Source: an uncultured delta proteobacterium (GTDB lineage Bacteria; Desulfobacterota; Desulfobacteria; Desulfobacterales; JAFDCJ01). From it: a stretch of DNA of 64,000 bases. Within the stretch, counting starts at the first letter, position 1. Every line of letters starts with the position of its first letter. Where the stretch lies: contig CAVYNY010000013.1 of the NCBI GenBank assembly GCA_963769935.1, positions 576,001-640,000 of the forward strand. The letters run 5' to 3'. Under the pieces are notes generated by a model. That model ran no database searches and was not told where the DNA came from. It worked only from the letters and a program-made list of their open reading frames with translations. Below are positions 51 to 12,167 of this stretch, piece by piece. Made by a program: the position numbers and the translations under genes.

Positions 51-212
51 CCCAGGTTGCTGTTCGGCTGGCGGAGGACAGACTATTTCTCAGGCTGAAT
101 GCTTGTTGGTCCACAGCCTGTCGGCCGCCGCCGGTCGATAATCCATCCCGGCGGCCGTGATAGGTGTCAGAAATTGAAACACTATGCAAAAAAGGCTGAC
201 AATGCCCCGTCC

Positions 213-228
213 TGGCACAGTTTTTGTA
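213..228 (+). promoter_or_regulatory. sigma54-like promoter (variant -12)
   Basis: TGGCACAGTTTTTGTA = GG-N10-GT, upstream of the metK-like gene. Confidence 0.45.
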
Positions 229-550
229 GCAACCCCTTCGGGAAGGCAGCCCCAACGCAGCGTCTCAAACAAAGGAACGGCTCATATCGAATAAACAACT
301 GGAGCCCATGCACTGAAAACCCCGCCCTAGTAAGAAAGTGCAGGCATCGCTCTGTGGATCGGCGATTTGCCCGCGATGGCCGGGTATCATCACCGACCGG
401 TTTAAACTTAGGAGGGATCCTGATGAACCCAGCACCGAGGAACGACCATACGCAAGCGTGTGGAGCTTTCTTTATCTATGCGGTCTTTTTGCCTGCTGGC
501 GCCGATGGACCACCGGCCTCTATTCTCGAGCTGAAACAAAGGAGCATCAG

Positions 551-1759
551 ATGGGAAACAGATACGTTCTGACCAGCGAGTCGATATCGGAAGGCCATCC
601 GGACAAGGTAGCGGATCAAATTGCCGATGCTATTCTGGATCTCTATCTGGCAGCCGACCCCCATGCCAGGGTGTTCTGTGAAACCGTGATCACCGAGGGC
701 AAGGTTATCGTGGCCGGAGAAGTCTCTTCCATCGTACCGGTGCCGGAAGAAAAAATTGAGGCGGCGATCCGGGAGGTGGTCCGAGATGTCGGCTACGGAG
801 ATCCGGTTTGGGGGTTCGGTGCGGATGCCTTTGTTTTGCAAAATGATCTGAATAACCGCTGTGGTGATGGATATAACGGCGAGCAGCAAGAAGACAACGA
901 GGCCGATGCCGGGAGGCAGGGAATCGTGTTCGGGTACGCCACCGATGAAACTCGCGAAAAAATGCCGCTGCCCATCCAGCTGGCTCACCGTCTCATGAAT
1001 CGCCATGCCGAAGTGCGCCGAACAGGCGAGCTGCCCTGGCTCGGGCCGAGTGCCAAGGTCCAGGTAACCGTTAGCTATAAAAATGGTGTGCCGTCAAAAG
1101 TCGAGCAGGTGACCCTTGCCACCCGTTGCAACGCCACGGGGAACGGAGCCTCCCTGCGGGAGGCGCTAGTCGAAGCCATTATCAACCCCGTGGTCCGGGA
1201 GCCATGGCGTGCCGGGGATATGGGCTGCCTGGTAAGCCCGGTAGGCAGCCGGGGGAACGGACGGACGGGGATCCATATCGGCGTGAGCGGCCGAAGGGTT
1301 GCTTCAGACACTTACGGAGGCAGTTGCCCCAATGGGGGCGGCGGGCTTTCCGGCAAGGACCCGACCCGTCTGGAACGCTTCGCGGCCTATGCGGTCCGCC
1401 AAGTCGCCAAGAACCTGGTCGCCGCCGGGATTGCCCGGCGTTGCACGGTCCAGTTGGGCTACGCGTTGGGAAAGGCCCGGCCGGTGACCATGAACATCGA
1501 TTTTCACGGCACGGGCCGTGTTCCTGAAATAGAGACCATGGCGGTGGTGAACCGAGTTTTCGATCTGAGTCAGTCGGGCACTATCAATCGCCTGCAACTG
1601 CTGCGGCCGATATACCGCCACTCCTCCGTTTACGGTCACTACGGGAGAGAAAAGGATCCCTATACATGGGAAAATGCCGATCAGGCGGACGTTCTTCGGG
1701 GCTTGGTCGCCGTGGCCCTCTCCAGCAAAGACTGTCCATCCATCTTCGTCGCCCTGTGA
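551..1759 (+). CDS. degenerate S-adenosylmethionine synthetase (MetK) paralog
   Basis: TSESISEGHPDK, DTYGG and SGKDP motifs and full MetK length; AAGGAG RBS before ATG 551; many substrate-binding residues substituted. Confidence 0.9.
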   Translation: MGNRYVLTSESISEGHPDKVADQIADAILDLYLAADPHARVFCETVITEGKVIVAGEVSSIVPVPEEKIEAAIREVVRDVGYGDPVWGFGADAFVLQNDLNNRCGDGYNGEQQEDNEADAGRQGIVFGYATDETREKMPLPIQLAHRLMNRHAEVRRTGELPWLGPSAKVQVTVSYKNGVPSKVEQVTLATRCNATGNGASLREALVEAIINPVVREPWRAGDMGCLVSPVGSRGNGRTGIHIGVSGRRVASDTYGGSCPNGGGGLSGKDPTRLERFAAYAVRQVAKNLVAAGIARRCTVQLGYALGKARPVTMNIDFHGTGRVPEIETMAVVNRVFDLSQSGTINRLQLLRPIYRHSSVYGHYGREKDPYTWENADQADVLRGLVAVALSSKDCPSIFVAL

Positions 1760-2077
1760 CAGCCGGTTCGTTTTCCGGCCGGTTGTCAGTGACTGCCGAC
1801 CAGTGTCCACGAACGGAACCCTTGTCACAAATAAAGACACTTCCAGGTATGCGCGCGTGTAAAAGGCGGTAACTGTCAGGATAGGGATAAACGAGCCGGG
1901 CCGAAATCTCCTGCCGAGAGGCGATGGCGTTCCCCGCCACGCTACGCGACCCGACTATCGTTGACTCCCCGTCCGACACGGGATCAGCGAGCCGTCCGTA
2001 CCCTGCATGTCACATCTGTAGACAATTGCCCGCGAGCACCCCCTGCCGAAGAACTTCCCTTGCATAAATATATATAA

Positions 2078-2123
2078 AATCAATGGCTTAAAGTTTTTAT
2101 TAAACCCCGGCACACTCCTTGCG
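2078..2123 (+). promoter_or_regulatory. IHF site plus sigma54 promoter of the glycyl-radical operon
   Basis: AATCAATGGCTTA (WATCAA-N4-TTR) at 2078-2090; CGGCACACTCCTTGCG (GG-N10-GC) at 2108-2123. Confidence 0.8.
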
Positions 2124-2206: not shown

Positions 2207-4930
2207 ATGACTAAAAACCCTAAAAAACTAAGAGATGTTTTGGCGGATGCCGGGATCCCCATGGATTTCCAGTCCGGTGGGGTCGCTCCCGACATACTGG
2301 TGGACCGCGAAGTAAAGCGCCAACCCCATCCCCGCGTACAGAAGCTGAAAGATATCTTCATGGATACGCTTTCATCCGCCACCAACGAATTCACCTATTG
2401 GTATACGCGGGAGTACATGCTGCACGACAATGAAATCCCGGTGGTACGCCGGGCCATGGCCCTCAAGAGTGCCTTTGCACACTCCACTCCGGTCATCTTC
2501 CCGGGGGAGTTGCTGACCATGCGCAAGGCCCCGTATTTCCGTGGGTCTTTCCCCATGCCCTGGCTTTCCGAGGGTTTCTATATGGCCAAGGAGGATGAGT
2601 TCTACCAGGAGGCCCTCAAGCGCGGATCAACGTCCGTGGATGAACATTCCAAATTCGGCCAGGGTGGAGGCAACGTGCCGAAAAGCTTCGGCAAGGTGGT
2701 TTCCATCGCCGGCAAATTCGGCATGCGCCAAGAGGAGATCCCGGCTCTGCTGAAGCTGGCCCGGATGTGGTACGGCAAATCCGTCGACGACCTGGGCAAC
2801 AAGTATGAGAAGATGGTGCCCAGCTACGGCACCAAGGAAAAGATCATGCGCAACATCGTTTGCATGTTCGATTCCGGCTTCACTCTGCCCCAGGGCCGCG
2901 AGGTCATCAATTACTACTATCCTCTAGAGTACGGCTTCGACGGTATCATCGAGATCGCCCGGGAAGGGAAGGCCGAGGTGGCCGGAAGGGCTGACGGCGA
3001 CGGCATGGTCGGTATAAACCGGCTGTACAACTACGAAGCGGTCATCCTGGCCGTGGAAGGAGTCCAGGCCTGGGTGCTGAACTACGCCAAGGAGGCCCGG
3101 CGCCTGGCTGGCATTGAAACCGACGCCCGGCAGAAAAAAGAGTACGAAGAGATGGCCGAACGTCTTGCGTGGATTGGTCACAATCCGCCGCGGACCTTCA
3201 TCGAGGCCTTTCAGATGATCATCACCATCCACATGGCAGTGCTCAACGAAGACGCCATTTCCGGGATGTCCCCGGGCCGCGTCGGGCAGGTCCTCTACCC
3301 GTATTTCGAGCAGGATATTGAAGCCGGCCGCATCACCGAAGACGAAGTCATCGAGCTTCTGGAGCAGGACCGGGTCATTAAGACCTCCATCGACTGTTTT
3401 GCTTCCATGGGCGTGGTCGGCGGCGTCCTCTCGGGCAACACCTTCAATACCCTGTCCATCGGCGGCTTGGACCGCAACGGCAAAGCCGTGGCCAACCGCC
3501 TCGAATACCTGATCTTGGAAGCAGGAGCCAACAATGCCATGCCCCAGTCCACCCTGGCCCTGCTATACAACGAAAAGCTCCCGGACGATTTTCTCATGCT
3601 GGCCATGGAGGTCATCAAAACCGGTGCAGGGTATCCGGCCTTCATGAACGACGATGTAGCCCAAGTCTTCCTCAAGCACCAGTATGGCCCCGAAGGGCTT
3701 GATTATAAAGATGCCCGGGCCTGGGCCATCGGCGGCTGCCTGGAAACCTCGGCCTGCATCTGGAAACCGCTGCATCTCAACGGCAAGGAATACTGGATTC
3801 CCGGCGGCGCCGGACAGCCCACCAGCGTTGGGGTTCACTTCATCTCCATGCCCAAGGTCCTGGAGCTGACCCTGAACAACGGCAAGGATCCCAGGACCGG
3901 CGAGCAGGTCTACGCCCCTCACAACAAGGCCCTGGCCACCTATGATGAGCTCTGGGAACAATACAAGCTCTACTGGCAGGAAACCGTCCTGGCCCTGGAT
4001 CTGTGCAACAACATCCAGCACGATGTCTGGCGCAAGAACAACATGGCGATTTTCAACTCCATGCTTAAGCCCGACTGCCTGGACAAAGGGCATCTGATCA
4101 ACGAACTCGGCTACCGTTTCAACGCTTCCTTCAATGTGGAGAGCGCCGGCACCATCAACCTGGTCAACTCCCTGGCGGCTCTGAACAAGCTGGTCTACGA
4201 CGACAAGGTCGTGACTCTGGAAGAGATGAAGGCCGCCATGAAGGCCAACTTCGGGTTCAAGACCGCCCATGAGATCAACTCCTTCTCCCTGGCCGATCAG
4301 GAAAAGGCCGAAAATGCAGGCGATGAATGGGACAAGGTCCACCACCTGTGCCTGCAGGCGCCCAAATACGGCAACGACGATCCGTATGCCGACAACATTC
4401 TGCGGGAATGGGAGAATTTCTTCTGCCCGGACTGCGCCAACTATGAATCCCTCTACGGTCATCCCCTCTATGCCTGTCAGATCTCCGTCTCCACCCACGG
4501 CGCAATGGGGTCGGCCACCCTGGCAACACCGGACGGGCGTCTGGCCGGAACCACCTTTGCGGATGCCTCCATGTCGGCTTACCCCGGCACGGATCGCAAC
4601 GGGCCTTTTGCCCTGATGAACTCGGCGTCGGTCTGGGATCATTCCATGTCCCAGAATTCTCAGCTCAACATCAAGATCCACCCCACCGCCATCAAGGGGT
4701 TGGAGGGCGCCAGGAAACTCCTGGACATGATCCGGGCTTACATGCGCAAGGGCGGCTTCCATGTCCAGTTCAATATCGTGGATTCCAAGGTGCTCAAAAA
4801 CGCCCAGGAGAACCCCCAGAACTATCGCGACCTCATGGTCCGGGTGGCGGGCTTTACCCAATACTGGGTCGAAATCGGCAAGAGCGTACAGGATGAACTC
4901 ATCGCCAGAACCGAATACGAAGGAGTCTAA
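2207..4930 (+). CDS. hpdB: glycyl-radical enzyme, 4-hydroxyphenylacetate decarboxylase large subunit-like
   Basis: 907 aa PFL-like; C-terminal RVAGF glycyl motif; GGCLE thiyl loop; QGRE, SGNTF, VHF and NVES motifs as recalled for HpdB/CsdB; small subunit follows directly. Confidence 0.85.
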   Translation: MTKNPKKLRDVLADAGIPMDFQSGGVAPDILVDREVKRQPHPRVQKLKDIFMDTLSSATNEFTYWYTREYMLHDNEIPVVRRAMALKSAFAHSTPVIFPGELLTMRKAPYFRGSFPMPWLSEGFYMAKEDEFYQEALKRGSTSVDEHSKFGQGGGNVPKSFGKVVSIAGKFGMRQEEIPALLKLARMWYGKSVDDLGNKYEKMVPSYGTKEKIMRNIVCMFDSGFTLPQGREVINYYYPLEYGFDGIIEIAREGKAEVAGRADGDGMVGINRLYNYEAVILAVEGVQAWVLNYAKEARRLAGIETDARQKKEYEEMAERLAWIGHNPPRTFIEAFQMIITIHMAVLNEDAISGMSPGRVGQVLYPYFEQDIEAGRITEDEVIELLEQDRVIKTSIDCFASMGVVGGVLSGNTFNTLSIGGLDRNGKAVANRLEYLILEAGANNAMPQSTLALLYNEKLPDDFLMLAMEVIKTGAGYPAFMNDDVAQVFLKHQYGPEGLDYKDARAWAIGGCLETSACIWKPLHLNGKEYWIPGGAGQPTSVGVHFISMPKVLELTLNNGKDPRTGEQVYAPHNKALATYDELWEQYKLYWQETVLALDLCNNIQHDVWRKNNMAIFNSMLKPDCLDKGHLINELGYRFNASFNVESAGTINLVNSLAALNKLVYDDKVVTLEEMKAAMKANFGFKTAHEINSFSLADQEKAENAGDEWDKVHHLCLQAPKYGNDDPYADNILREWENFFCPDCANYESLYGHPLYACQISVSTHGAMGSATLATPDGRLAGTTFADASMSAYPGTDRNGPFALMNSASVWDHSMSQNSQLNIKIHPTAIKGLEGARKLLDMIRAYMRKGGFHVQFNIVDSKVLKNAQENPQNYRDLMVRVAGFTQYWVEIGKSVQDELIARTEYEGV

Positions 4931-4931
4931 A

Positions 4932-5195
4932 ATGAAGAAACTATCATACCGCGACACGCGCAACTATGCGCCCATTGATGTGATCAAGGGCATCGACCTG
5001 CAAACCAAAAAATTCGTTATGGGGGATGCGGAGGCACCCGAGGGGGCCGAGATGATGCCCAAGTGCAAGTTCTGCAAAAACTTCACGGAGACCGAGGACT
5101 ACCTGGGAATCTGCGAATCGTCCAGGAATGATCCGAAGTTCATGTCTTACGGCGACATGTATGCGACGACTTGCGAAACATTCGAGGCCAGATAG
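4932..5195 (+). CDS. hpdC: HpdC-like decarboxylase small subunit (87 aa)
   Basis: ATG 1 nt after the large-subunit stop, AGGAG RBS; CKFC...GIC...TC C-terminal Fe-S ligands; resembles HpdC/CsdC. Confidence 0.8.
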   Translation: MKKLSYRDTRNYAPIDVIKGIDLQTKKFVMGDAEAPEGAEMMPKCKFCKNFTETEDYLGICESSRNDPKFMSYGDMYATTCETFEAR

Positions 5196-5316: not shown

Positions 5317-6645
5317 ATGGATGACACGAGAGCAAAAAGATACGGGTGGTCGGTTGTGGCGGCCTCCTGGCTGGCTGTGTTCTGCCTCTTCGGCTACCGG
5401 GCGACGTTTGCCATTCTCAAAGGCCCCATGAGCGCCGATTTAGGCTGGAGTCAGACCCAGGTCACCCTGGGGTATTCTCTGATGATGATGTTCTATGCCG
5501 TGACGGCCTTTTTCAGCGGGATGATTCTGGACAAATGGGGCACGAAGCCGGTTTACACGGTTGCCGCCATTTTTGGCGGGCTGGGCTTCTACACCACCAG
5601 CCTGATCAGCAGCCATCTGGCCTATTTGTTTACTTTCGGGCTTTTGGCAGAGATTGCAACGGGCATGCTGTGGGTGACGTCCACGGTTTCGGTGCGCAAA
5701 TGGTATGTCGGCAGATCCTACGGCACCATGTGGGGCATCGCCTTTGCCGGAGCGCCCATGGCCCAGTTTGTCCTGGCGTATGTCACAAAGGCGGCCCTGC
5801 GGGGCGATGCGGCGGACACCTGGCGGGGGGCAATGGTCCTTCTATCGGCGATCATGTTCGTTCTGCTGGTACTGGCGGTGATCCTGGCGAAGCGCAGCCC
5901 GGAAATATACAACATGAAACCCTTCGGGGAAATCCCCACCCGCGGGGGTGCGGCCCCGGCCGCGGAATACGAGTGGGGGGTCAAGGAGGCTTTTTCGACC
6001 TTTGCCGTCTGGGGGGCCATTCTTATGTTCTTGACCAGCATGATGGCCGAATTTCTCATCTGGACCCAGGTGGTCAGTTTCTGGGTGGCCGATCTGGGCT
6101 GGACCCGGGATACGGCGGTGCAAAGCTACGCCGTCATCGGGCTAGTGGGCATTTTCAGCATGCCCCTTTTGGGCATCGTGGCCGACAAGGTGGTGCAGGC
6201 GGTGGGCAACGAAGTCAAGGGGCGGAAGATCATGCTGTTCGTGGGACCGTTAACCGGGATCTTCGCCTGCGTCTTCCTGCTGATGTCGGGCAAAACCATC
6301 ATCTGGGCCTATGTGGCCTGCGTGATTTTCGCCATCTACTGGGCCATCGTTCCCGGCGGGGTCGTAGGGTACTGCGGGGCGGTTTACGGCCGCAAGACGC
6401 TGGGCAAAATCTGGGGGCTGTCCACATTAATTGTCATGGGCATCGGGCCTTTTACCGGTTCGTTCATCGGCGGCTGGCTCAAGGATGTCTCCGGCAGCTA
6501 TACCTATTCGATCTTTTATGCTCTGGGCTCTTTCGGTGTGTCAATGCTTCTGGCTCTGGCCTTGCCCATACATGCCCGGCAGAAGAGGTTCGCTCGGGTT
6601 TCGCTGGGTTTGCCCTCCGGTGAGGTGGCTCCGGCAGTGAAGTAA
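5317..6645 (+). CDS. MFS transporter (OFA/monocarboxylate-like)
   Basis: about 12 hydrophobic segments; GMILDKWG motif A. Confidence 0.9.
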   Translation: MDDTRAKRYGWSVVAASWLAVFCLFGYRATFAILKGPMSADLGWSQTQVTLGYSLMMMFYAVTAFFSGMILDKWGTKPVYTVAAIFGGLGFYTTSLISSHLAYLFTFGLLAEIATGMLWVTSTVSVRKWYVGRSYGTMWGIAFAGAPMAQFVLAYVTKAALRGDAADTWRGAMVLLSAIMFVLLVLAVILAKRSPEIYNMKPFGEIPTRGGAAPAAEYEWGVKEAFSTFAVWGAILMFLTSMMAEFLIWTQVVSFWVADLGWTRDTAVQSYAVIGLVGIFSMPLLGIVADKVVQAVGNEVKGRKIMLFVGPLTGIFACVFLLMSGKTIIWAYVACVIFAIYWAIVPGGVVGYCGAVYGRKTLGKIWGLSTLIVMGIGPFTGSFIGGWLKDVSGSYTYSIFYALGSFGVSMLLALALPIHARQKRFARVSLGLPSGEVAPAVK

Positions 6646-6874: not shown

Positions 6875-7888
6875 ATGAAAACTGACAAGCCCTCGGTGAC
6901 GGACAGGCAAAGCGTGGATATCACTTCAGGTGAGCCCAAAGCGCGGTGCCCTTTGGGGTCGGCGGTCCAGGGGCTGATTTTTGATATCCAAGGTCACTCC
7001 ATCCACGACGGTCCGGGCACCCGCACCACCGTCTTCATGTCCGGCTGCCCGTTGAGCTGCATCTGGTGCTGCAACCCTGAGGGGCTGCATCGCCAGCCGG
7101 TGGTTATGTACAAAGAGAGCAAATGCGTGTGCTGCGGCAAATGTATCGAAGCCTGCCTTTACGGAGCCGTCAGTGTCTCCAGGGAGGGCAAACTCGAACG
7201 GGTTCGAAGCCTGTGTAACATCTGCCGGACCTACGAATGCATCGGGGCCTGTTACCATGAAGCCATCGGACTCAGTGCCAAGTACTATTCGGTTGATGAC
7301 CTGATGCGCGTCTTTCAAAGGGACCGCCATTTCTGGGGTTCGCGGGGTGGGGTGACCTTCAGCGGCGGCGAGCCGCTTATGCAGCGGGAATTCATGACCG
7401 CAATGCTGAAGCGTTGCAAGGAAGGCTATATCCACACCTGCATCGAAACCACCTCCTGCCTGGATACCGATTACTTCCTCGGCATCATGCAATATGTCGA
7501 GTGGGCGTTCACCGACATCAAGCATATGGACCCGCAGGTCCACCGGAAGATCACCGGCGTGGACAACAAGCTGATTCTGCATAACATCCGACGCCTAGTT
7601 GAGGCTGACTGGGGCGGCTTTATCGTGCCGCGGATTCCCGTGGTACCCGCCATCAACGATACGGATGAGAATATCCGGGCCACGGCGCAATTCGTCCGAA
7701 GCTGCGGCCTGGAACTGATCAATATCCTGCCGTTTCACCGGCTCGGCGAATCCAAATACCGCCAACTGGGTCAGTGTTATCAGCTGGCCGATCAGGCGTC
7801 GCCTGCGGCGGAACAGATGAATCACCTGAAGAAGATAATCGAGGATGAAGGGCTGTACTGTTTTGTGGGCTGGGAGACCCCCTTTTGA
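6875..7888 (+). CDS. hpdA: glycyl-radical enzyme activating enzyme
   Basis: HDGPGTRT, CPLSCIWC radical-SAM motif, ferredoxin insert (CVCCGKC, CNIC..C..C), GGVTFSGGEP. Confidence 0.9.
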   Translation: MKTDKPSVTDRQSVDITSGEPKARCPLGSAVQGLIFDIQGHSIHDGPGTRTTVFMSGCPLSCIWCCNPEGLHRQPVVMYKESKCVCCGKCIEACLYGAVSVSREGKLERVRSLCNICRTYECIGACYHEAIGLSAKYYSVDDLMRVFQRDRHFWGSRGGVTFSGGEPLMQREFMTAMLKRCKEGYIHTCIETTSCLDTDYFLGIMQYVEWAFTDIKHMDPQVHRKITGVDNKLILHNIRRLVEADWGGFIVPRIPVVPAINDTDENIRATAQFVRSCGLELINILPFHRLGESKYRQLGQCYQLADQASPAAEQMNHLKKIIEDEGLYCFVGWETPF

Positions 7889-7975
7889 ATCCGTCTCCGT
7901 TGTTCAGATATAATGCCGCCATTCCCGAAACCGTGAGTGAATTCCCGCGCACCAAGTCATGCGAAGGAGACCGCC

Positions 7976-8533
7976 ATGGATAAAATTGCCACGGCCTGTG
8001 AGGCACTGATCCGGCAAATCATCGACCTGGAATGGGATATGTTCAGTCAGGTTAAATCTCAGAGCGAGGCAGTCTGCCAGCGACAGCCGGGAACCTTTCG
8101 CAGGATGCGCTGGATGAGCCACTGTGTGCTGCCATCGGCTGTCTTGCAGTCCTACCGGGATGATTTGAAGGCGGCCCAGGAGGCCGGGCGCAACCTGATG
8201 ACGGAAAAATACGCCCGAATGCAGGGATTGCTGCCCCCGCGGCAGGACAACCCGCTCATCGAAGATATCGTGGAAGTGGAAAGCGGATGGCTCAACGAGC
8301 TCATTGGAAAATATCCACGGATCTTCACTCGGGCCCAGGCGAGCTTCTGTCATTATGCCCGCAGCGAGTTGGGTACCTACTCGGAACACACCATTGAGCT
8401 GTATTGTGCCCATGTGAAAGAGGCCGAGGCAATCGGTCGCAATCTGGTCAGGGAACGATATACTCGCCTCTTCGGTCAAATGGGCATAGGCACCATCGAA
8501 GACGTAGATCGCGGTCGGGCGGCCCGTGGTTGA
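7976..8533 (+). CDS. DUF4125-like protein
   Basis: IIDLEWDMF..CQ..F..MR and GRNLMTEKYARM motifs; AAGGAG RBS. Confidence 0.75.
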   Translation: MDKIATACEALIRQIIDLEWDMFSQVKSQSEAVCQRQPGTFRRMRWMSHCVLPSAVLQSYRDDLKAAQEAGRNLMTEKYARMQGLLPPRQDNPLIEDIVEVESGWLNELIGKYPRIFTRAQASFCHYARSELGTYSEHTIELYCAHVKEAEAIGRNLVRERYTRLFGQMGIGTIEDVDRGRAARG

Positions 8534-8797: not shown

Positions 8798-9187
8798 ATG
8801 GAGGTTAATCAGCAAAAAATGTTTTATAAAATCGATTTCTCGGTAGCAACGAGTGGTCAGATCGAAGCTGCCCTCTGCAAGCGCTTGGAAAGCATACGGC
8901 TTTCCCGTAACATAACCCAAGCACAACTCGCTGAAGAAGCCGGCGTCTCGCCTAGAACCATCGGACGGCTTGAAAAGGGCCAAGGTGTTTCCATGGATAC
9001 TTTCATCCGGATTATGATGGCGCTTAGCATACAGCAAAATCTTGAAGCCCTGTTGCCGGATCCAAAGGTGAGACCAATCGAACGGGTTGGCATGGGCGCC
9101 GGAGAGCGTCAGCGCGCACGCCCTGCTAAATCGATGGATGAACTTCCAACTTGGTCGTGGGGTGACGGGGAGGACGATGGTGAATAA
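8798..9187 (+). CDS. XRE-family HTH regulator (HipB-like antitoxin)
   Basis: RLSRNITQAQLAEEAGVSPRTIGRLEKG; overlaps the start of a HipA-like remnant; true start may be 8819. Confidence 0.85.
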   Translation: MEVNQQKMFYKIDFSVATSGQIEAALCKRLESIRLSRNITQAQLAEEAGVSPRTIGRLEKGQGVSMDTFIRIMMALSIQQNLEALLPDPKVRPIERVGMGAGERQRARPAKSMDELPTWSWGDGEDDGE

Positions 9188-9407
9188 TGATGCACGCGTC
9201 GTTCTGTGGGGTAGTCACCGCACAAGCTTATGATCCGCTTCGGTAAAGCTATTGAAGAGCAATGTTTTGCGCGCATTGGACGCCCTTCATGTTGCGTGTG
9301 CTCTTGAGTGGCAGGCTGATCTCTTTGTAACCTCAGACCGAAGGCAACTTACGGCCGCCATGAGTACGGGTCTTCGTACTGAATACATAGGCCAGCCAAT
9401 CAGTTGA
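9177..9407 (+). pseudogene. HipA N-terminal stub joined to a PIN/VapC C-terminal fragment
   Basis: MVNNDARVVLWGS.. (HipA-like start), TGA at 9231, then LRALDALHVACALEWQADLFVTSDRRQ (PIN motif). Confidence 0.7.
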
Positions 9408-9492
9408 GCTGACGGGAAAAAGCTGGCGATTATTCGCTAAGATCTGTGCCACCTTGTGAGTTATCTGGCTCGCAGCTCACTTCCACATTGGC
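9391..9492 (+). mobile_element. degenerate attC-like site
   Basis: GCCAGCCAATCAGTTGAGCTG ... CAGCTCACTTCCACATTGGC; both AAC and GTT cores mutated. Confidence 0.55.
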
Positions 9493-9562
9493 TTGCAGGA
9501 GAGATGCCAAGAAATATGGCAAAACAAAAGCAACTATCCCGACGCTGCTCAAGCTTGGAGGA

Positions 9563-11248
9563 TCACTGAGACGCCAGCGGTGCAAGGTGGTTGCGTTCAA
9601 GGTACTCTTTGCCCTGGGATGAGGTAATCACCAGCAGCCGGTCCCCCGCTTGAAGGAGGGTGTCCGGATGGGGCAAACGAATCTGACCCTCGCGCAAAAT
9701 AGCGATAAGTTCAAACTCGCCTCCCAGCTCTTCAGAAGGGCCGAAGCGGGCCGGTTTGCCAACCCAGGCGCTTTCCGGCCGAAGGATGCCGATAGCCAAC
9801 TGCTTTCCCTCCGACAGGTTTACAGCTACCCCCGATTTCAAGAGTGTCATAAGGTCCAGATGACAAACCTTGTTGGGCTCACAAACCCATGGTTTGCACA
9901 CAAGGTCCAGAGCAATGCAAGTGTTTTCCATATCATGGGCGGGCGACTCGGCTCTGGAAGGCATCTGCGCCTCGTAAAGACTCCGATACTTGAGGGGGGT
10001 GGAAAGGATTGTCTGCACGAGGTAGCTCAGCATCACGGCCAGAGCTGCAGGGACAAGCAACTGATAGCCTCCGGTCATCTCTGTCACCATCAACAAGGTG
10101 GCAATCGGCACCCGTGCGGCACCGCCAAAAACGGCTGCCATACCAACGATCACGAAAGCCGCCGGCGGCTGATGAAAGAGTCCGGCCATGAATCCGCCGG
10201 CCATTCCCCCAACGACCAGACTGGGTGCGAAAACGCCGCCGGAGCCGCCGGATGAAACGCTCAGGGCAAAGGCCAGCATTTTGGCAAAAATCAGGGCGAG
10301 CAGCAACATCAGCGACAAACGCCCATTGATTGCTTCCTGAATCCAACCGTAACCGCCCCCCAGCACCTGGGGGAGAACAAGTGCCAACAGGCCGACACAA
10401 AGACCGCCGATGGCCGGTTTGATGTGCGGCGGAAGAGGTATTTTGTGAAAGAAGTCCCGCATACCGTAAAAGACCATCGGTAAAAGTGTTGCCACTATCC
10501 CGCTGCCGACACCGAGCACCGCATACCAGATATAATCGGTGAACATAGGGACGCTCAAGTCCGGGGGCACCTGGAAAAGGGGTTGCCATCCCACAAACAC
10601 GCCGTTAATGACATAGGCCACCAGGGACCCCAGCATGGTGTAGAGCAGGGCGGCTGCTTCGAATTCCATATCGGCGTACAACACCTCGATGGCAAAGATG
10701 GCGGTCCCAATGGGCGAGCGGAAAATCGCTGCGAGCCCGGCGGCCATGCCAACGAGTACCAGAAGGCGCCGGTCCTCGTCCGAACGTTTGGTCAGACTGG
10801 CGTATATCGCTCCGATCCCCGCACTCATCAGGGCCGTCGGTCCCTCCCTTCCGGCGGCCCCGCCTGACCCTATGGTTATGGCCGAAGCCACTGCTTTCAG
10901 CGGAGCCACCCGCGCGCGGATAAAGCCTGCGGCACGGTGAAAGGCTTTCACCGCAGTGTCAGTGCCGTGTCCCTCCGCTTCGGGTGCCAGGCTGTAAACC
11001 AGAATACCCGAGATGAGGCCCCCCAGGGTGGTGCTCAGGGGAATCCACCACAAGCCATGCGAGCCAATCACCTGTTTGAGCACGCCTCCCTCGTCCGGCA
11101 GTCCCGGCGGGGAATATCCCGCCAACCCGCCCAGGAAGAGGGCTTCGGCTCCCTTCAACATGAGCGTGAAAACTTGGGCGCTGAGGGCCCCCACTACGCC
11201 CAGCAATACCGTATCGATGATGATCCATTGATTTCGGCCGGTTTGCAT
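9563..11248 (-). CDS. ClC chloride channel/antiporter with C-terminal TrkA-C domain
   Basis: GREGP, GGVFAP and EMTG motifs; PHPDTLLQAGDRL. Confidence 0.93.
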   Translation of the reverse strand: MQTGRNQWIIIDTVLLGVVGALSAQVFTLMLKGAEALFLGGLAGYSPPGLPDEGGVLKQVIGSHGLWWIPLSTTLGGLISGILVYSLAPEAEGHGTDTAVKAFHRAAGFIRARVAPLKAVASAITIGSGGAAGREGPTALMSAGIGAIYASLTKRSDEDRRLLVLVGMAAGLAAIFRSPIGTAIFAIEVLYADMEFEAAALLYTMLGSLVAYVINGVFVGWQPLFQVPPDLSVPMFTDYIWYAVLGVGSGIVATLLPMVFYGMRDFFHKIPLPPHIKPAIGGLCVGLLALVLPQVLGGGYGWIQEAINGRLSLMLLLALIFAKMLAFALSVSSGGSGGVFAPSLVVGGMAGGFMAGLFHQPPAAFVIVGMAAVFGGAARVPIATLLMVTEMTGGYQLLVPAALAVMLSYLVQTILSTPLKYRSLYEAQMPSRAESPAHDMENTCIALDLVCKPWVCEPNKVCHLDLMTLLKSGVAVNLSEGKQLAIGILRPESAWVGKPARFGPSEELGGEFELIAILREGQIRLPHPDTLLQAGDRLLVITSSQGKEYLERNHLAPLASQ

Positions 11249-11563
11249 GTCTATCTCCTTCGAGATGTGCTATGCGCACTTATCCCACCCGCATAGAACC
11301 GAGCACACTTGGTTTTTCCTCTTCCCCCCGACTGATGACGGGCCCTGAAAAAGATTTGGATAAAAGAAATAACAAATCCATACCGAACGTTTCGAACGCT
11401 AACGATTTTTTAAATATACGGAAAATAAACTTGGGTTTGAATGGGTTCAATCCTGTATAATAAGACTGGAATCAGTGTATCTTTTTGGCGCCGCAGGGAG
11501 ATAGCGGCTCATGCTCTAACCGGTCTCTCCACTCCTCCATTATCATCCAGAAATATTTCTATA

Positions 11564-11593
11564 TTGACACACATAATAATGTTGGCATATTAT
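11564..11593 (+). promoter_or_regulatory. sigma70 promoter of the TA operon
   Basis: TTGACA-N18-TATTAT. Confidence 0.55.
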
Positions 11594-11625
11594 AGCTATA
11601 ACTATCAATATAAATGGAGTGTCCT

Positions 11626-11859
11626 ATGCGCACTATTCAAATGACACTTGATGATGATCTCGTAAAAAAGGTCGATGCTATAGCAAATGAGCTTCAAACA
11701 ACACGCTCTGCGTTTACGCGAGATGCATTGCGGGAAGCGGTTCAACAATACAACATTCGCCGTCTTGAATTGAAGCACCGCCAAGGCTACGCGGTTCGCC
11801 CAGTCAATGAAGAGGAGTTCAGTGTCCGGGAAAAAGAACAAAATTGGGGGGATGAATGA
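11626..11859 (+). CDS. ribbon-helix-helix antitoxin
   Basis: MRTIQMTLDDDLV..TRSAFTRDALR; ATGA overlap with the toxin gene. Confidence 0.85.
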   Translation: MRTIQMTLDDDLVKKVDAIANELQTTRSAFTRDALREAVQQYNIRRLELKHRQGYAVRPVNEEEFSVREKEQNWGDE

Positions 11860-12167
11860 AGAGGGGTGAGATCAGATGGTACAAATTCAAAGCTGCTGAT
11901 AAGAAACGGCCGGTTTTAATTTTAACCCGCAATTCCATACTGGAGTATCTTGGGGAAGTCACCGTGGCCCCGATCACCACGACCGTTCGGGATATACCTA
12001 GCGAAGTATTCCTCTCAAAACAAGACGGGATGATAAAGGACTGCGCAATAAACTTCGATCACCTTCAAACGGTGTCGAAGGGAAAGATTGGATCGCTGAT
12101 AACAACACTTTCTATAGATAAATTAGAAAAAGTGAGAGCGGCCGTACAATTTGCCCTGAACCTATAA
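11856..12167 (+). CDS. mazF: MazF/PemK toxin
   Basis: MKRGEI..KKRPVLIL..VTVAPITT. Confidence 0.9.
   Translation: MKRGEIRWYKFKAADKKRPVLILTRNSILEYLGEVTVAPITTTVRDIPSEVFLSKQDGMIKDCAINFDHLQTVSKGKIGSLITTLSIDKLEKVRAAVQFALNL

What the first reader, a model, noticed from the sequence alone, without database searches (positions are those of the whole stretch)
551..1759. Intact MetK paralog with the adenosine and methionine pocket rewritten
Compared with E. coli MetK as recalled: QSPDI>RCGDG, GAGDQG>DAGRQG, PDAK>PSAK, STQH>ATRC, GRFVIGGPMGD>GSRGNGRTGIH, GRK>GRR, KVDR>RLER. GHPDK, CE, GE, the PxAK Lys and GKD are kept, and these are mostly metal/triphosphate contacts. The ORF is full length with no stops. 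Inference: a repurposed enzyme (other nucleotide or amino acid, or tripolyphosphatase) or a pseudoenzyme regulator, rather than simple decay.
Basis: partly seen in the sequence, partly recalled or inferred. Interest (0 to 1): 0.78.

Follow-up and report, generated by a model that had tools for sequence, protein, structure and literature searches.

The report
Dead SAM synthetase beside cresol-forming operon
A bacterium found in soil DNA keeps an intact second copy of the SAM-making enzyme MetK whose substrate pocket is scrambled differently in each of four related lineages, so it likely no longer makes SAM and likely survives as a non-catalytic partner of the predicted p-cresol-forming genes next to it.

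Summary
Observation confirmed. ORF 551-1759 is a full-length MetK-fold protein (43% to E. coli MetK) with 9 of 11 adenosine/methionine contacts replaced; an intact metK lies elsewhere on the contig. It belongs to a small clade of four lineages (55-68% identical, one lacking its N-terminus) sharing a new C-terminal tail. The fold is under purifying selection: conserved-site excess 0.35 against at most 0.19 in neutral simulations. The pocket replacements differ in every lineage, and triphosphate/metal residues are kept no better than other invariant sites (20/27 vs 256/369). That favours a pseudoenzyme over a re-specified enzyme. The gene sits between a divergent PAS/sigma54 activator and hpdB-hpdC-MFS-hpdA (4-hydroxyphenylacetate decarboxylase); the two other genomes found with this cassette lack it. 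Its closest intact relative with readable DNA is a SAM-riboswitch-led accessory metK. The partner is unknown; my lead guess is feedback on the activator (about 0.2). Against: constraint is relaxed, no RNA data, relatives' neighbours unnamed. It passes the TIGR01034 cut-off, so it will be mis-annotated as active. No paper found. The scan noted dead MetKs on other DNA (unchecked notes), none matching this clade.

The parts
551..1759 (+). MetK-fold protein with degenerate active site (P0001, 402 aa)
   Evidence: (TIGR01034 383 bits, cut-off 309)
1706..1756 (+). Clade-specific C-terminal tail (residues about 386-402), past the end of E. coli MetK
   Evidence: motif only in the 7 clade sequences among the proteins held; 11 of 21 positions from residue 382 identical in all four lineages; pLDDT under 50 at 395-402
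539..544 (+). Ribosome-binding site AAGGAG
   Evidence: sequence
165..201 (.). Candidate activator sites: exact TGT-N11-ACA at 165-181 and a one-mismatch copy at 185-201
   Evidence: one exact copy in this 910-bp region is not significant alone (238 of 2000 shuffles)
213..227 (+). Candidate sigma54 -24/-12 promoter for the MetK-like gene (TGGCAC-N5-TTGT, one mismatch)
   Evidence: the pattern occurs 6 times in 64 kb against 6.0 expected, so position is the only support
1823..1839 (.). TGT-N11-ACA candidate activator site upstream of hpdB
   Evidence: 6 exact copies in three hpdB upstream regions, 0 of 2000 shuffles reach 6
2008..2024 (.). Second TGT-N11-ACA site upstream of hpdB
2078..2090 (+). 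IHF-consensus match (consensus recalled)
2108..2122 (+). Candidate sigma54 promoter of hpdB (CGGCAC-N5-TTGC)
2207..4930 (+). hpdB, 4-hydroxyphenylacetate decarboxylase large subunit (glycyl radical enzyme)
   Evidence: NF033715 1571 bits, cut-off 1150
4932..5195 (+). hpdC small subunit
   Evidence: NF033716 69 bits, cut-off 50; PF18671, PF18524
5317..6645 (+). MFS transporter
   Evidence: 60% identical gene at the same place in G126 and G073
6875..7888 (+). hpdA-type radical-SAM activase
   Evidence: best family NF033717, 396 bits, below its cut-off of 420; above the TIGR02494 cut-off
7937..8533 (+). DUF4125 protein, also in the G126 and G073 cassettes

Best explanation
This is a MetK-fold protein that has lost most substrate-binding residues, likely cannot make SAM, and is likely kept by selection as a non-catalytic binding partner that would be co-induced with the neighbouring 4-hydroxyphenylacetate decarboxylase cassette. 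Shown: the fold (predicted model), the loss of pocket residues, selection on the scaffold, a conserved new C-terminal tail, an intact housekeeping metK, and the position between activator and hpdB. Inferred history: an accessory metK of the SAM-riboswitch-led kind entered the activator-hpdB spacer, would at first have supplied SAM to the activase, lost the riboswitch and later lost catalysis. Inferred mechanism: it would still dimerise (the E42-R244 cross-subunit salt bridge is kept) and would use its surface and tail to bind a protein of the cassette. My lead guess is feedback control of the divergent PAS/sigma54 activator (about 0.2 overall), ahead of binding the activase HpdA (about 0.15), mixing with housekeeping MetK (about 0.15) or another partner (about 0.1). 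The confidence figure is for the pseudoenzyme reading as a whole.
For: Pocket: 6 of 33 adenosine/Met cells kept in the three full-length lineages against 256 of 369 at other invariant sites; 1 of 11 vs 73 of 123 sites kept in all three, Fisher p=0.002. Of 12 catalytic residues listed in PMC7271947 (passage; mapped to E. coli numbers by me), P0001 keeps 7, P0003 5, P0004 8, and P0126 4 of the 8 it covers; intact relatives keep 12. Replacements differ among lineages. Selection: all-three identity is 90/143 at canonical-invariant sites and 37/132 at variable sites, a difference of 0.349 against mean 0.00 and maximum 0.185 in 2 x 2000 neutral simulations; all three frames stayed open in 0 of 2000 in each set. 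One clade, SH-aLRT 99, stem 0.65 (quick tree). Model pLDDT 87, pTM 0.88, TM 0.87-0.89 to E. coli MetK chains. E42 kept 3/3 and R244 4/4; the human equivalents Glu57-Arg264 form the dimer salt bridge. Intact metK next to an ahcY-like gene (identified by eye from its sequence) at C13:145.5-146.8 kb keeps 12 of 12. The P0003 and P0004 contigs show the same layout: divergent gene upstream, same-strand gene 485 and 294 bp downstream. The closest intact relative with DNA (G350, reading as P0007) has a SAM-I riboswitch 75 nt upstream.
Against: No partner is shown. The cassette lacks the gene in 2 of 2 other genomes found with it, so it is dispensable there. P0126 lacks about 100 N-terminal residues although its contig is 26.6 kb, so one lineage may be broken. 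Constraint is weak: conservative changes make up 0.29-0.375 of differences, against 0.26 +/- 0.04 neutral and 0.375-0.45 in intact pairs, and P0001-P0003 (0.29) is within one SD of neutral. Strain variants are 4 non-synonymous: 2 synonymous here and 6: 8 in the neighbours (p=0.096). 50 of 123 other invariant sites change in at least one lineage. The promoter candidate is a one-mismatch match at chance frequency. The position of the clade next to the riboswitch-led group is not resolved in the tree (support 54).
Confidence: 0.6

Rival explanations
1. A half-enzyme: SAM synthesis is lost but the second MAT reaction (tripolyphosphate hydrolysis) or polyphosphate/metal binding is the selected function.
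For: H14, D16, K17, E42 kept 3/3 and R244 4/4; this group is kept more than the adenosine/Met group (5/9 vs 1/11, p=0.05). Residues 1-20 are among the best-kept windows (14/20). Human MAT mutants with 2.5-4.5% SAM synthesis keep wild-type PPPi hydrolysis (PMC6850014 table passage).
Against: Retention equals that of other invariant sites (p=1.0). K245 is lost in all four lineages (R/T/A/M), K265 is Gln in P0003, K165 is Arg in two and D271 is Glu in two. E42 and R244 are also explained by the dimer salt bridge. The triphosphate/metal assignment of these nine residues is partly recalled.
Confidence: 0.15
2. Late-stage relaxation: the gene was an active SAM supplier for most of the clade's history and is now drifting towards loss, with no present function.
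For: Near-neutral amino-acid change spectrum for P0001-P0003; non-synonymous strain variants including E55D; GC3 0.675 against 0.73-0.77 in the cassette genes; P0126 truncated; rare (4 lineages; no clade member in 60 relatives, 400 order and 400 phylum genomes, overlapping samples); protein databases list only open frames, which biases the open-frame test.
Against: The site-class test does not depend on open frames and exceeds every neutral simulation. The pocket is lost in all four lineages while the new tail and shared changes such as H189C, T242S, F262L and V270L are fixed in all four, which points to loss of catalysis before they split, followed by about 2 substitutions per site of total tree length.
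Confidence: 0.13
3. A re-specified transferase or ligand sensor that takes another nucleotide or amino acid, or an aromatic such as hydroxyphenylacetate or p-cresol, in the old pocket.
For: The catalytic His and the metal ligands are kept. Archaeal MATs use different residues for the Met carboxyl and the adenine amino group (PMC3853416). P0001's pocket is strongly cationic (+6).
Against: No shared new pocket: residues and charge differ in each lineage. The aromatic stacking residue and both ribose Asp residues, which archaeal MATs keep, are gone. The two pocket loops are among the least conserved windows (101-120: 1/20; 221-240: 4/20).
Confidence: 0.08
4. Still a slow SAM synthetase dedicated to the activase, like the SAM synthetase gene of GRM3 glycyl-radical loci.
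For: Passes TIGR01034; sits by a glycyl radical enzyme and its activase; GRM3 loci encode a SAM synthetase (PMC4207490 passage); K245R, K269R and D271E are conservative in P0001.
Against: D118R, D163S, F230R, D238H, Q98R and S99C occur together; single changes at such sites cut activity to a few percent (S114A, R264A); K245 is T/A/M in the relatives.
Confidence: 0.04

Closest known systems
Bacterial methionine adenosyltransferase MetK/MAT (EC 2.5.1.6; TIGR01034; PF00438 + PF02772 + PF02773; E. coli chains 7LL3, 1XRA)
   Same: All three domains, predicted fold (TM 0.87-0.89), 43% identity, H14/D16/K17/E42/R244 kept, passes the family cut-off.
   Different: 9 of 11 adenosine/Met contacts and 5 of 12 listed catalytic residues replaced; extra conserved C-terminal tail; second copy beside an intact one.
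SAM-I-riboswitch-led accessory MetK group (P0005-P0011; G350:C86)
   Same: Highest identity outside the clade (46-51%) and shared xFHGTG marker.
   Different: These keep 12 of 12 catalytic residues (3 checked). G350's copy has a riboswitch, and I saw no glycyl radical enzyme gene by eye among the ORFs of the 20 kb read. No riboswitch is detectable in our leader.
Dedicated SAM synthetase of GRM3 glycyl-radical microcompartment loci (PMC4207490; called GrpR in earlier scan notes)
   Same: Second metK-type gene in a locus with a glycyl radical enzyme and its SAM-dependent activase.
   Different: Here the enzyme is a decarboxylase cassette, none of the neighbours I scanned is a shell protein, and the active site is degenerate. 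That GrpR is intact I take from unchecked scan notes only.
Prozyme, the dead AdoMetDC paralog of trypanosomes (PMC6221367, start of abstract seen)
   Same: Catalytically dead paralog of a SAM-metabolism enzyme kept beside an active copy.
   Different: Different fold. Prozyme's heterodimer with the active enzyme is established; no partner is shown here.
Accessory repressors of sigma54 aromatic activators, such as MphX (PMC3063778, title and start of abstract seen)
   Same: Extra gene linked to a divergent sigma54 activator of aromatic metabolism; a works-like analogy for my lead guess.
   Different: No homology shown or tested; no evidence here for repression.

Membership tests
MetK/MAT enzyme | Three-domain MAT fold over the full length | tested here: met
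   Pfam N, M and C domains; AF2 pLDDT 87 from an alignment mostly of intact MetKs, Foldseek E 3e-51
MetK/MAT enzyme | TIGR01034 score above curated cut-off | tested here: met
   383.3 vs 309.4 bits
MetK/MAT enzyme | Twelve conserved catalytic residues | tested here: not met
   7 of 12 (relatives 5 of 12, 8 of 12, 4 of 8)
MetK/MAT enzyme | Adenine stack, ribose Asp pair and Met ligands (F230, D163, D238, Q98, K269, I102 and others) | tested here: not met
   2 of 11 kept in P0001
MetK/MAT enzyme | Cross-subunit salt bridge E42-R244 | tested here: met
   by sequence only: E42 3/3, R244 4/4
MetK/MAT enzyme | Dimer or tetramer assembly | not tested
   no complex prediction was obtained
MetK/MAT enzyme | Makes SAM from ATP and methionine | not testable with these tools
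   needs an assay
Riboswitch-led accessory metK | SAM riboswitch in the leader | tested here: not met
   Rfam none; nhmmer profile of 11 relatives' SAM-I none; alignment to G350's switch no better than 722 of 1000 shuffles; fold z 0.45
Riboswitch-led accessory metK | Shared ancestry with that group | tested here: inconclusive
   highest identity and a shared marker, but tree placement weak; riboswitch seen for one member only
GRM3-type dedicated SAM synthetase | Adjacent glycyl radical enzyme and activase | tested here: met
   for relatives only the layout is known
GRM3-type dedicated SAM synthetase | Intact active site | tested here: not met
Pseudoenzyme | Catalytic or substrate residues lost while the fold stays under purifying selection | tested here: met
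   protein-level test, no codon-level dN/dS across lineages
Pseudoenzyme | Non-catalytic function through a partner | not tested
   no interaction or expression data

The most novel reading that the evidence does not exclude
A SAM synthetase recruited to feed a glycyl-radical activase was converted into a dedicated regulator of that system: a MetK-fold pseudoenzyme that binds the sigma54 activator (or the activase) through its new tail and sets p-cresol production. This would be an undescribed regulatory use of the MAT fold.
Probability: 0.25. Interest if true: 0.8.

Novelty: new variant of a known kind. Interest (0 to 1): 0.52.

Why it matters
MetK is treated as a near-invariant housekeeping enzyme. 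A selected, pocket-dead copy tied to a glycyl-radical decarboxylase shows the fold can be kept for a non-enzymatic job, and it gives a small testable system: four natural variants with different pockets and one shared tail. It also passes the NCBI equivalog cut-off, so pipelines will call it an active SAM synthetase and count it as SAM supply for the activase. The clade is rare and its job is unshown, which limits the score.

Tried and rejected
SAM riboswitch remnant in the 230-550 leader: rejected. Longer start at GTG 338: not favoured, given the RBS before 551 and the relatives' starts. More clade members: two degenerate patterns in JGI metagenome contigs and one in IMG/VR found 0; the C-terminal region search found only P0002 and one weak hit among 26 candidates; the GTDB locus scan used universal motifs, covered 1 of 64 parts and returned 80 loci at 40-46% identity, used only as background; genome searches found none in 60 relatives, 400 order and 400 phylum genomes apart from the intact G350 copy (overlapping samples, some incomplete); the top 10 of 188 plasmid records were at 43-45% and all 188 below 60%. 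HpdB searches: 2 of 400 order genomes, 0 of 22 genus genomes, 1 of 400 phylum genomes (the same G073), no plasmid. Naming the neighbours of P0003 and P0004 through an activator search failed. Expression: no RNA holder listed. Complex prediction with the activator: no verdict, the queue was full and the job never ran. ESM Atlas returned only MetK clusters. The careful tree did not finish; the quick tree is reported. Literature searches with no relevant hit: 'methionine adenosyltransferase' + 'pseudoenzyme' (4 papers, none on a dead MetK by title and abstract start); '4-hydroxyphenylacetate decarboxylase' + 'metK' (0); metK + paralog + catalytically inactive + SAM synthetase (0); 'MetK-like' (0); S-adenosylmethionine synthetase + inactive homolog + bacteria + metK (0). 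The library lacks most subscription papers, and I read no supplements.

Full report
Observation. Window 551-1759 encodes an uninterrupted 402-aa protein, P0001. It matches MetK chains in the PDB at E about 1e-99, scores 383 bits on TIGR01034 against a cut-off of 309 and has all three Pfam MAT domains. An AlphaFold2 model built on 79 sequences, mostly intact MetKs, has pLDDT 87 and superposes on E. coli MetK chains with TM 0.87-0.89. I took the adenosine/methionine contacts from passages of PMC3853416 and PMC8715544: E55, Q98, I102, G117, D118, D163, T227, R229, F230, D238 and K269. P0001 keeps 2 of these 11. In 77 full-length background MetKs (of 80 GTDB loci) nine of the sites are invariant. 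The genome has one other copy, at C13:145.5-146.8 kb, 41% identical, keeping 12 of 12 catalytic residues listed in PMC7271947.

Relatives. The word-index search (8000 candidates scored, 120 listed) gave P0002 (99%), P0003 (60%) and P0004 (57%), then intact MetKs at 51% and below. A profile search of 1.84 billion cluster representatives added P0126 (296 aa, 55%, lacking the N-terminal part). These form one clade (SH-aLRT 99, quick tree of 36 rows). They share a C-terminal tail found in no other protein held and fixed changes such as H189C, T242S, F262L and V270L. No further member turned up in 60 relatives, 400 order or 400 phylum genomes or in pattern scans. Degenerate MetKs also occur outside the clade: 19 of 148 other representatives change 4 or more of 18 key sites (alignment not hand-checked). 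The five of these placed in the tree did not fall inside the clade.

New enzyme or dead enzyme. Over the three full-length lineages, 6 of 33 adenosine/Met cells are kept, against 256 of 369 at other invariant sites (p=0.002 by site). The replacements disagree: D163 S/S/R/I, F230 R/A/V/Q, D238 H/Q/P/K, K245 R/T/A/M, and net charge over 11 pocket positions is +6, -1, +2, +1. A re-specified active site should be shared, and this one is not. The triphosphate/metal group (H14, D16, K17, E42, K165, R244, K245, K265, D271; assignment partly recalled) is kept in 20 of 27 cells, the same as background (p=1.0), though better than the adenosine/Met group (p=0.05). E42 and R244 have a structural reason to stay, as the human pair Glu57-Arg264 bridges the dimer. 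Tripolyphosphatase activity does survive mutations that remove most SAM synthesis in human MAT, so I leave that rival at 0.15.

Selection or decay. All-three identity is 90/143 at canonical-invariant sites and 37/132 at variable sites. In neutral simulations at matched divergence (star tree from the window's DNA, substitutions only, two sets of 2000) the difference averaged 0.00 and never exceeded 0.185, against 0.349 observed; all three frames stayed open in 0 of 2000 in each set. The open-frame result is biased because databases list called ORFs; the site-class result is not. Constraint is nonetheless weak. Conservative replacements are 0.29-0.375 of differences, against 0.26 +/- 0.04 neutral and 0.375-0.45 for two intact pairs. 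Low-depth contigs from soil DNA runs show 4 non-synonymous and 2 synonymous codon variants in 402 codons here, and 6 and 8 in 1773 neighbouring codons (p=0.096; 0.037 if R366K from protein records is added). For this count I dropped a cluster of X4 differences at 5611-5653 that comes from one divergent contig, and 36 rows were not shown. One variant hits the Met ligand E55. P0126 may be a broken copy.

Setting. Upstream and divergent, just outside the window (G000:C13:574240-575640), lies a PAS-AAA-HTH sigma54 activator. Downstream are hpdB, hpdC, an MFS transporter, an hpdA-type activase and a DUF4125 gene. G126 and G073 carry the same six-gene cassette (HpdB 77%) with no MetK-like gene in it, so the gene is an insertion in, or was lost from, the activator-hpdB spacer. 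TGT-N11-ACA occurs twice upstream of each of the three hpdB genes (6 copies; 0 of 2000 shuffles reach 6) and not at spacings 9, 10, 12 or 13, which marks it as the likely activator site; I chose the motif after looking at the regions. One exact and one near copy lie at 165-201, ahead of a one-mismatch sigma54 site at 213-227; these are not significant alone. hpdB has its own candidate promoter and IHF match, so the MetK-like gene is likely a separate unit. The P0003 and P0004 contigs show a divergent gene upstream and a same-strand gene downstream (at least 662 and 234 residues, cut by contig ends), but neither is named. The link to hpd is therefore shown for one lineage and only compatible for two more. 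The closest intact relative with DNA, in G350, follows a SAM-I riboswitch; our leader has none. The cassette is 57-58% GC within a 42-51% GC stretch with transposase genes upstream, and hpdB was not found in 22 genomes of the genus, which suggests a patchily distributed island.

Mechanism. Shown: fold by prediction, pocket loss, scaffold selection, tail, location. Inferred: no SAM synthesis; co-induction with hpd; retained dimer; a binding role. Among partners I rank the activator first because the gene sits beside it and seems to lie under its control, the usual arrangement for feedback regulators of sigma54 activators (recalled; MphX seen only as title and abstract start). The activase is second because the ancestor would have served it, as proposed for the SAM synthetase of GRM3 loci (PMC4207490 passage). 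Mixing with housekeeping MetK has a precedent in the inactive rat R265H/wild-type heterodimer, but the two proteins are only about 40% identical, and lowering SAM while inducing a SAM-dependent activase is hard to rationalise. None of this was tested; no complex prediction was obtained.

Novelty. By sequence and fold it belongs to the MAT superfamily. It fails the catalytic-residue test for a MetK enzyme. Five literature searches found no description; subscription papers and supplements were not seen. Earlier scan notes describe dead MetKs in Patescibacteria, in phages and behind a P-type ATPase, and intact GrpR copies in glycyl-radical loci. I did not check those notes, and none describes this clade or an hpd link. 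I saw passages only of PMC4207490, PMC8715544, PMC3853416, PMC7271947 and PMC6850014, and listings with abstract starts for PMC6221367 and PMC3063778. Verdict: a real, selected, rare pseudo-MetK; new variant of a known kind; interest 0.52.

Noticed in passing
window 165-201, 1823-1839, 2008-2024; L107 2332-2948; L108 11137-11507: TGT-N11-ACA is a candidate binding site for the PAS/sigma54 activator of the hpd cassette, present twice upstream of hpdB in three genomes. I did not find this activator-led hpdB-hpdC-MFS-hpdA-DUF4125 cassette described in one search (listings only).
   Followed up: partly
window 7937-8533; L107 8552-9040; L108 5065-5550: A DUF4125 gene follows hpdA in all three cassettes (44% identity), a candidate uncharacterised accessory factor of the decarboxylase.
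   Followed up: partly
P0276 against P0275 (activator, L002 14240-15640): The activator record from a 51-kb contig of the same length as P0002's is 337 aa instead of 466 and jumps after residue 228 into the later sequence: an apparent in-frame loss of much of the AAA domain, or an assembly error.
   Followed up: no
P0149, P0154, P0157, P0158, P0170, P0179, P0196, P0260 and others: 19 of 148 cluster representatives change 4 or more of 18 key MetK residues and lack this clade's tail; P0170's cluster has 5 members. Degenerate MetKs seem to have arisen several times.
   Followed up: partly
P0008, P0127, P0128, P0129: MetKs with intact pockets and long N- or C-terminal extensions (90-240 aa) that match no Pfam family.
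   Followed up: no
G000:C16:164686-164783 (L112): The genome's one SAM-I riboswitch above the cut-off has no metK within 1.5 kb; the same holds for the 10 others fetched from relatives.
   Followed up: no
window 5974: One X2 contig has a 1-base insertion in the MFS gene (frameshift or assembly error).
   Followed up: no
window 8798-12167: Downstream of the cassette: an HTH_3 gene, a CLC channel with TrkA-C domain (minus strand) and an RHH/PemK-type toxin-antitoxin pair.
   Followed up: no
G007:C131:2805-3945: A metK copy in a same-genus genome matches in four pieces, apparently frameshifted, beside an intact copy elsewhere.
   Followed up: no
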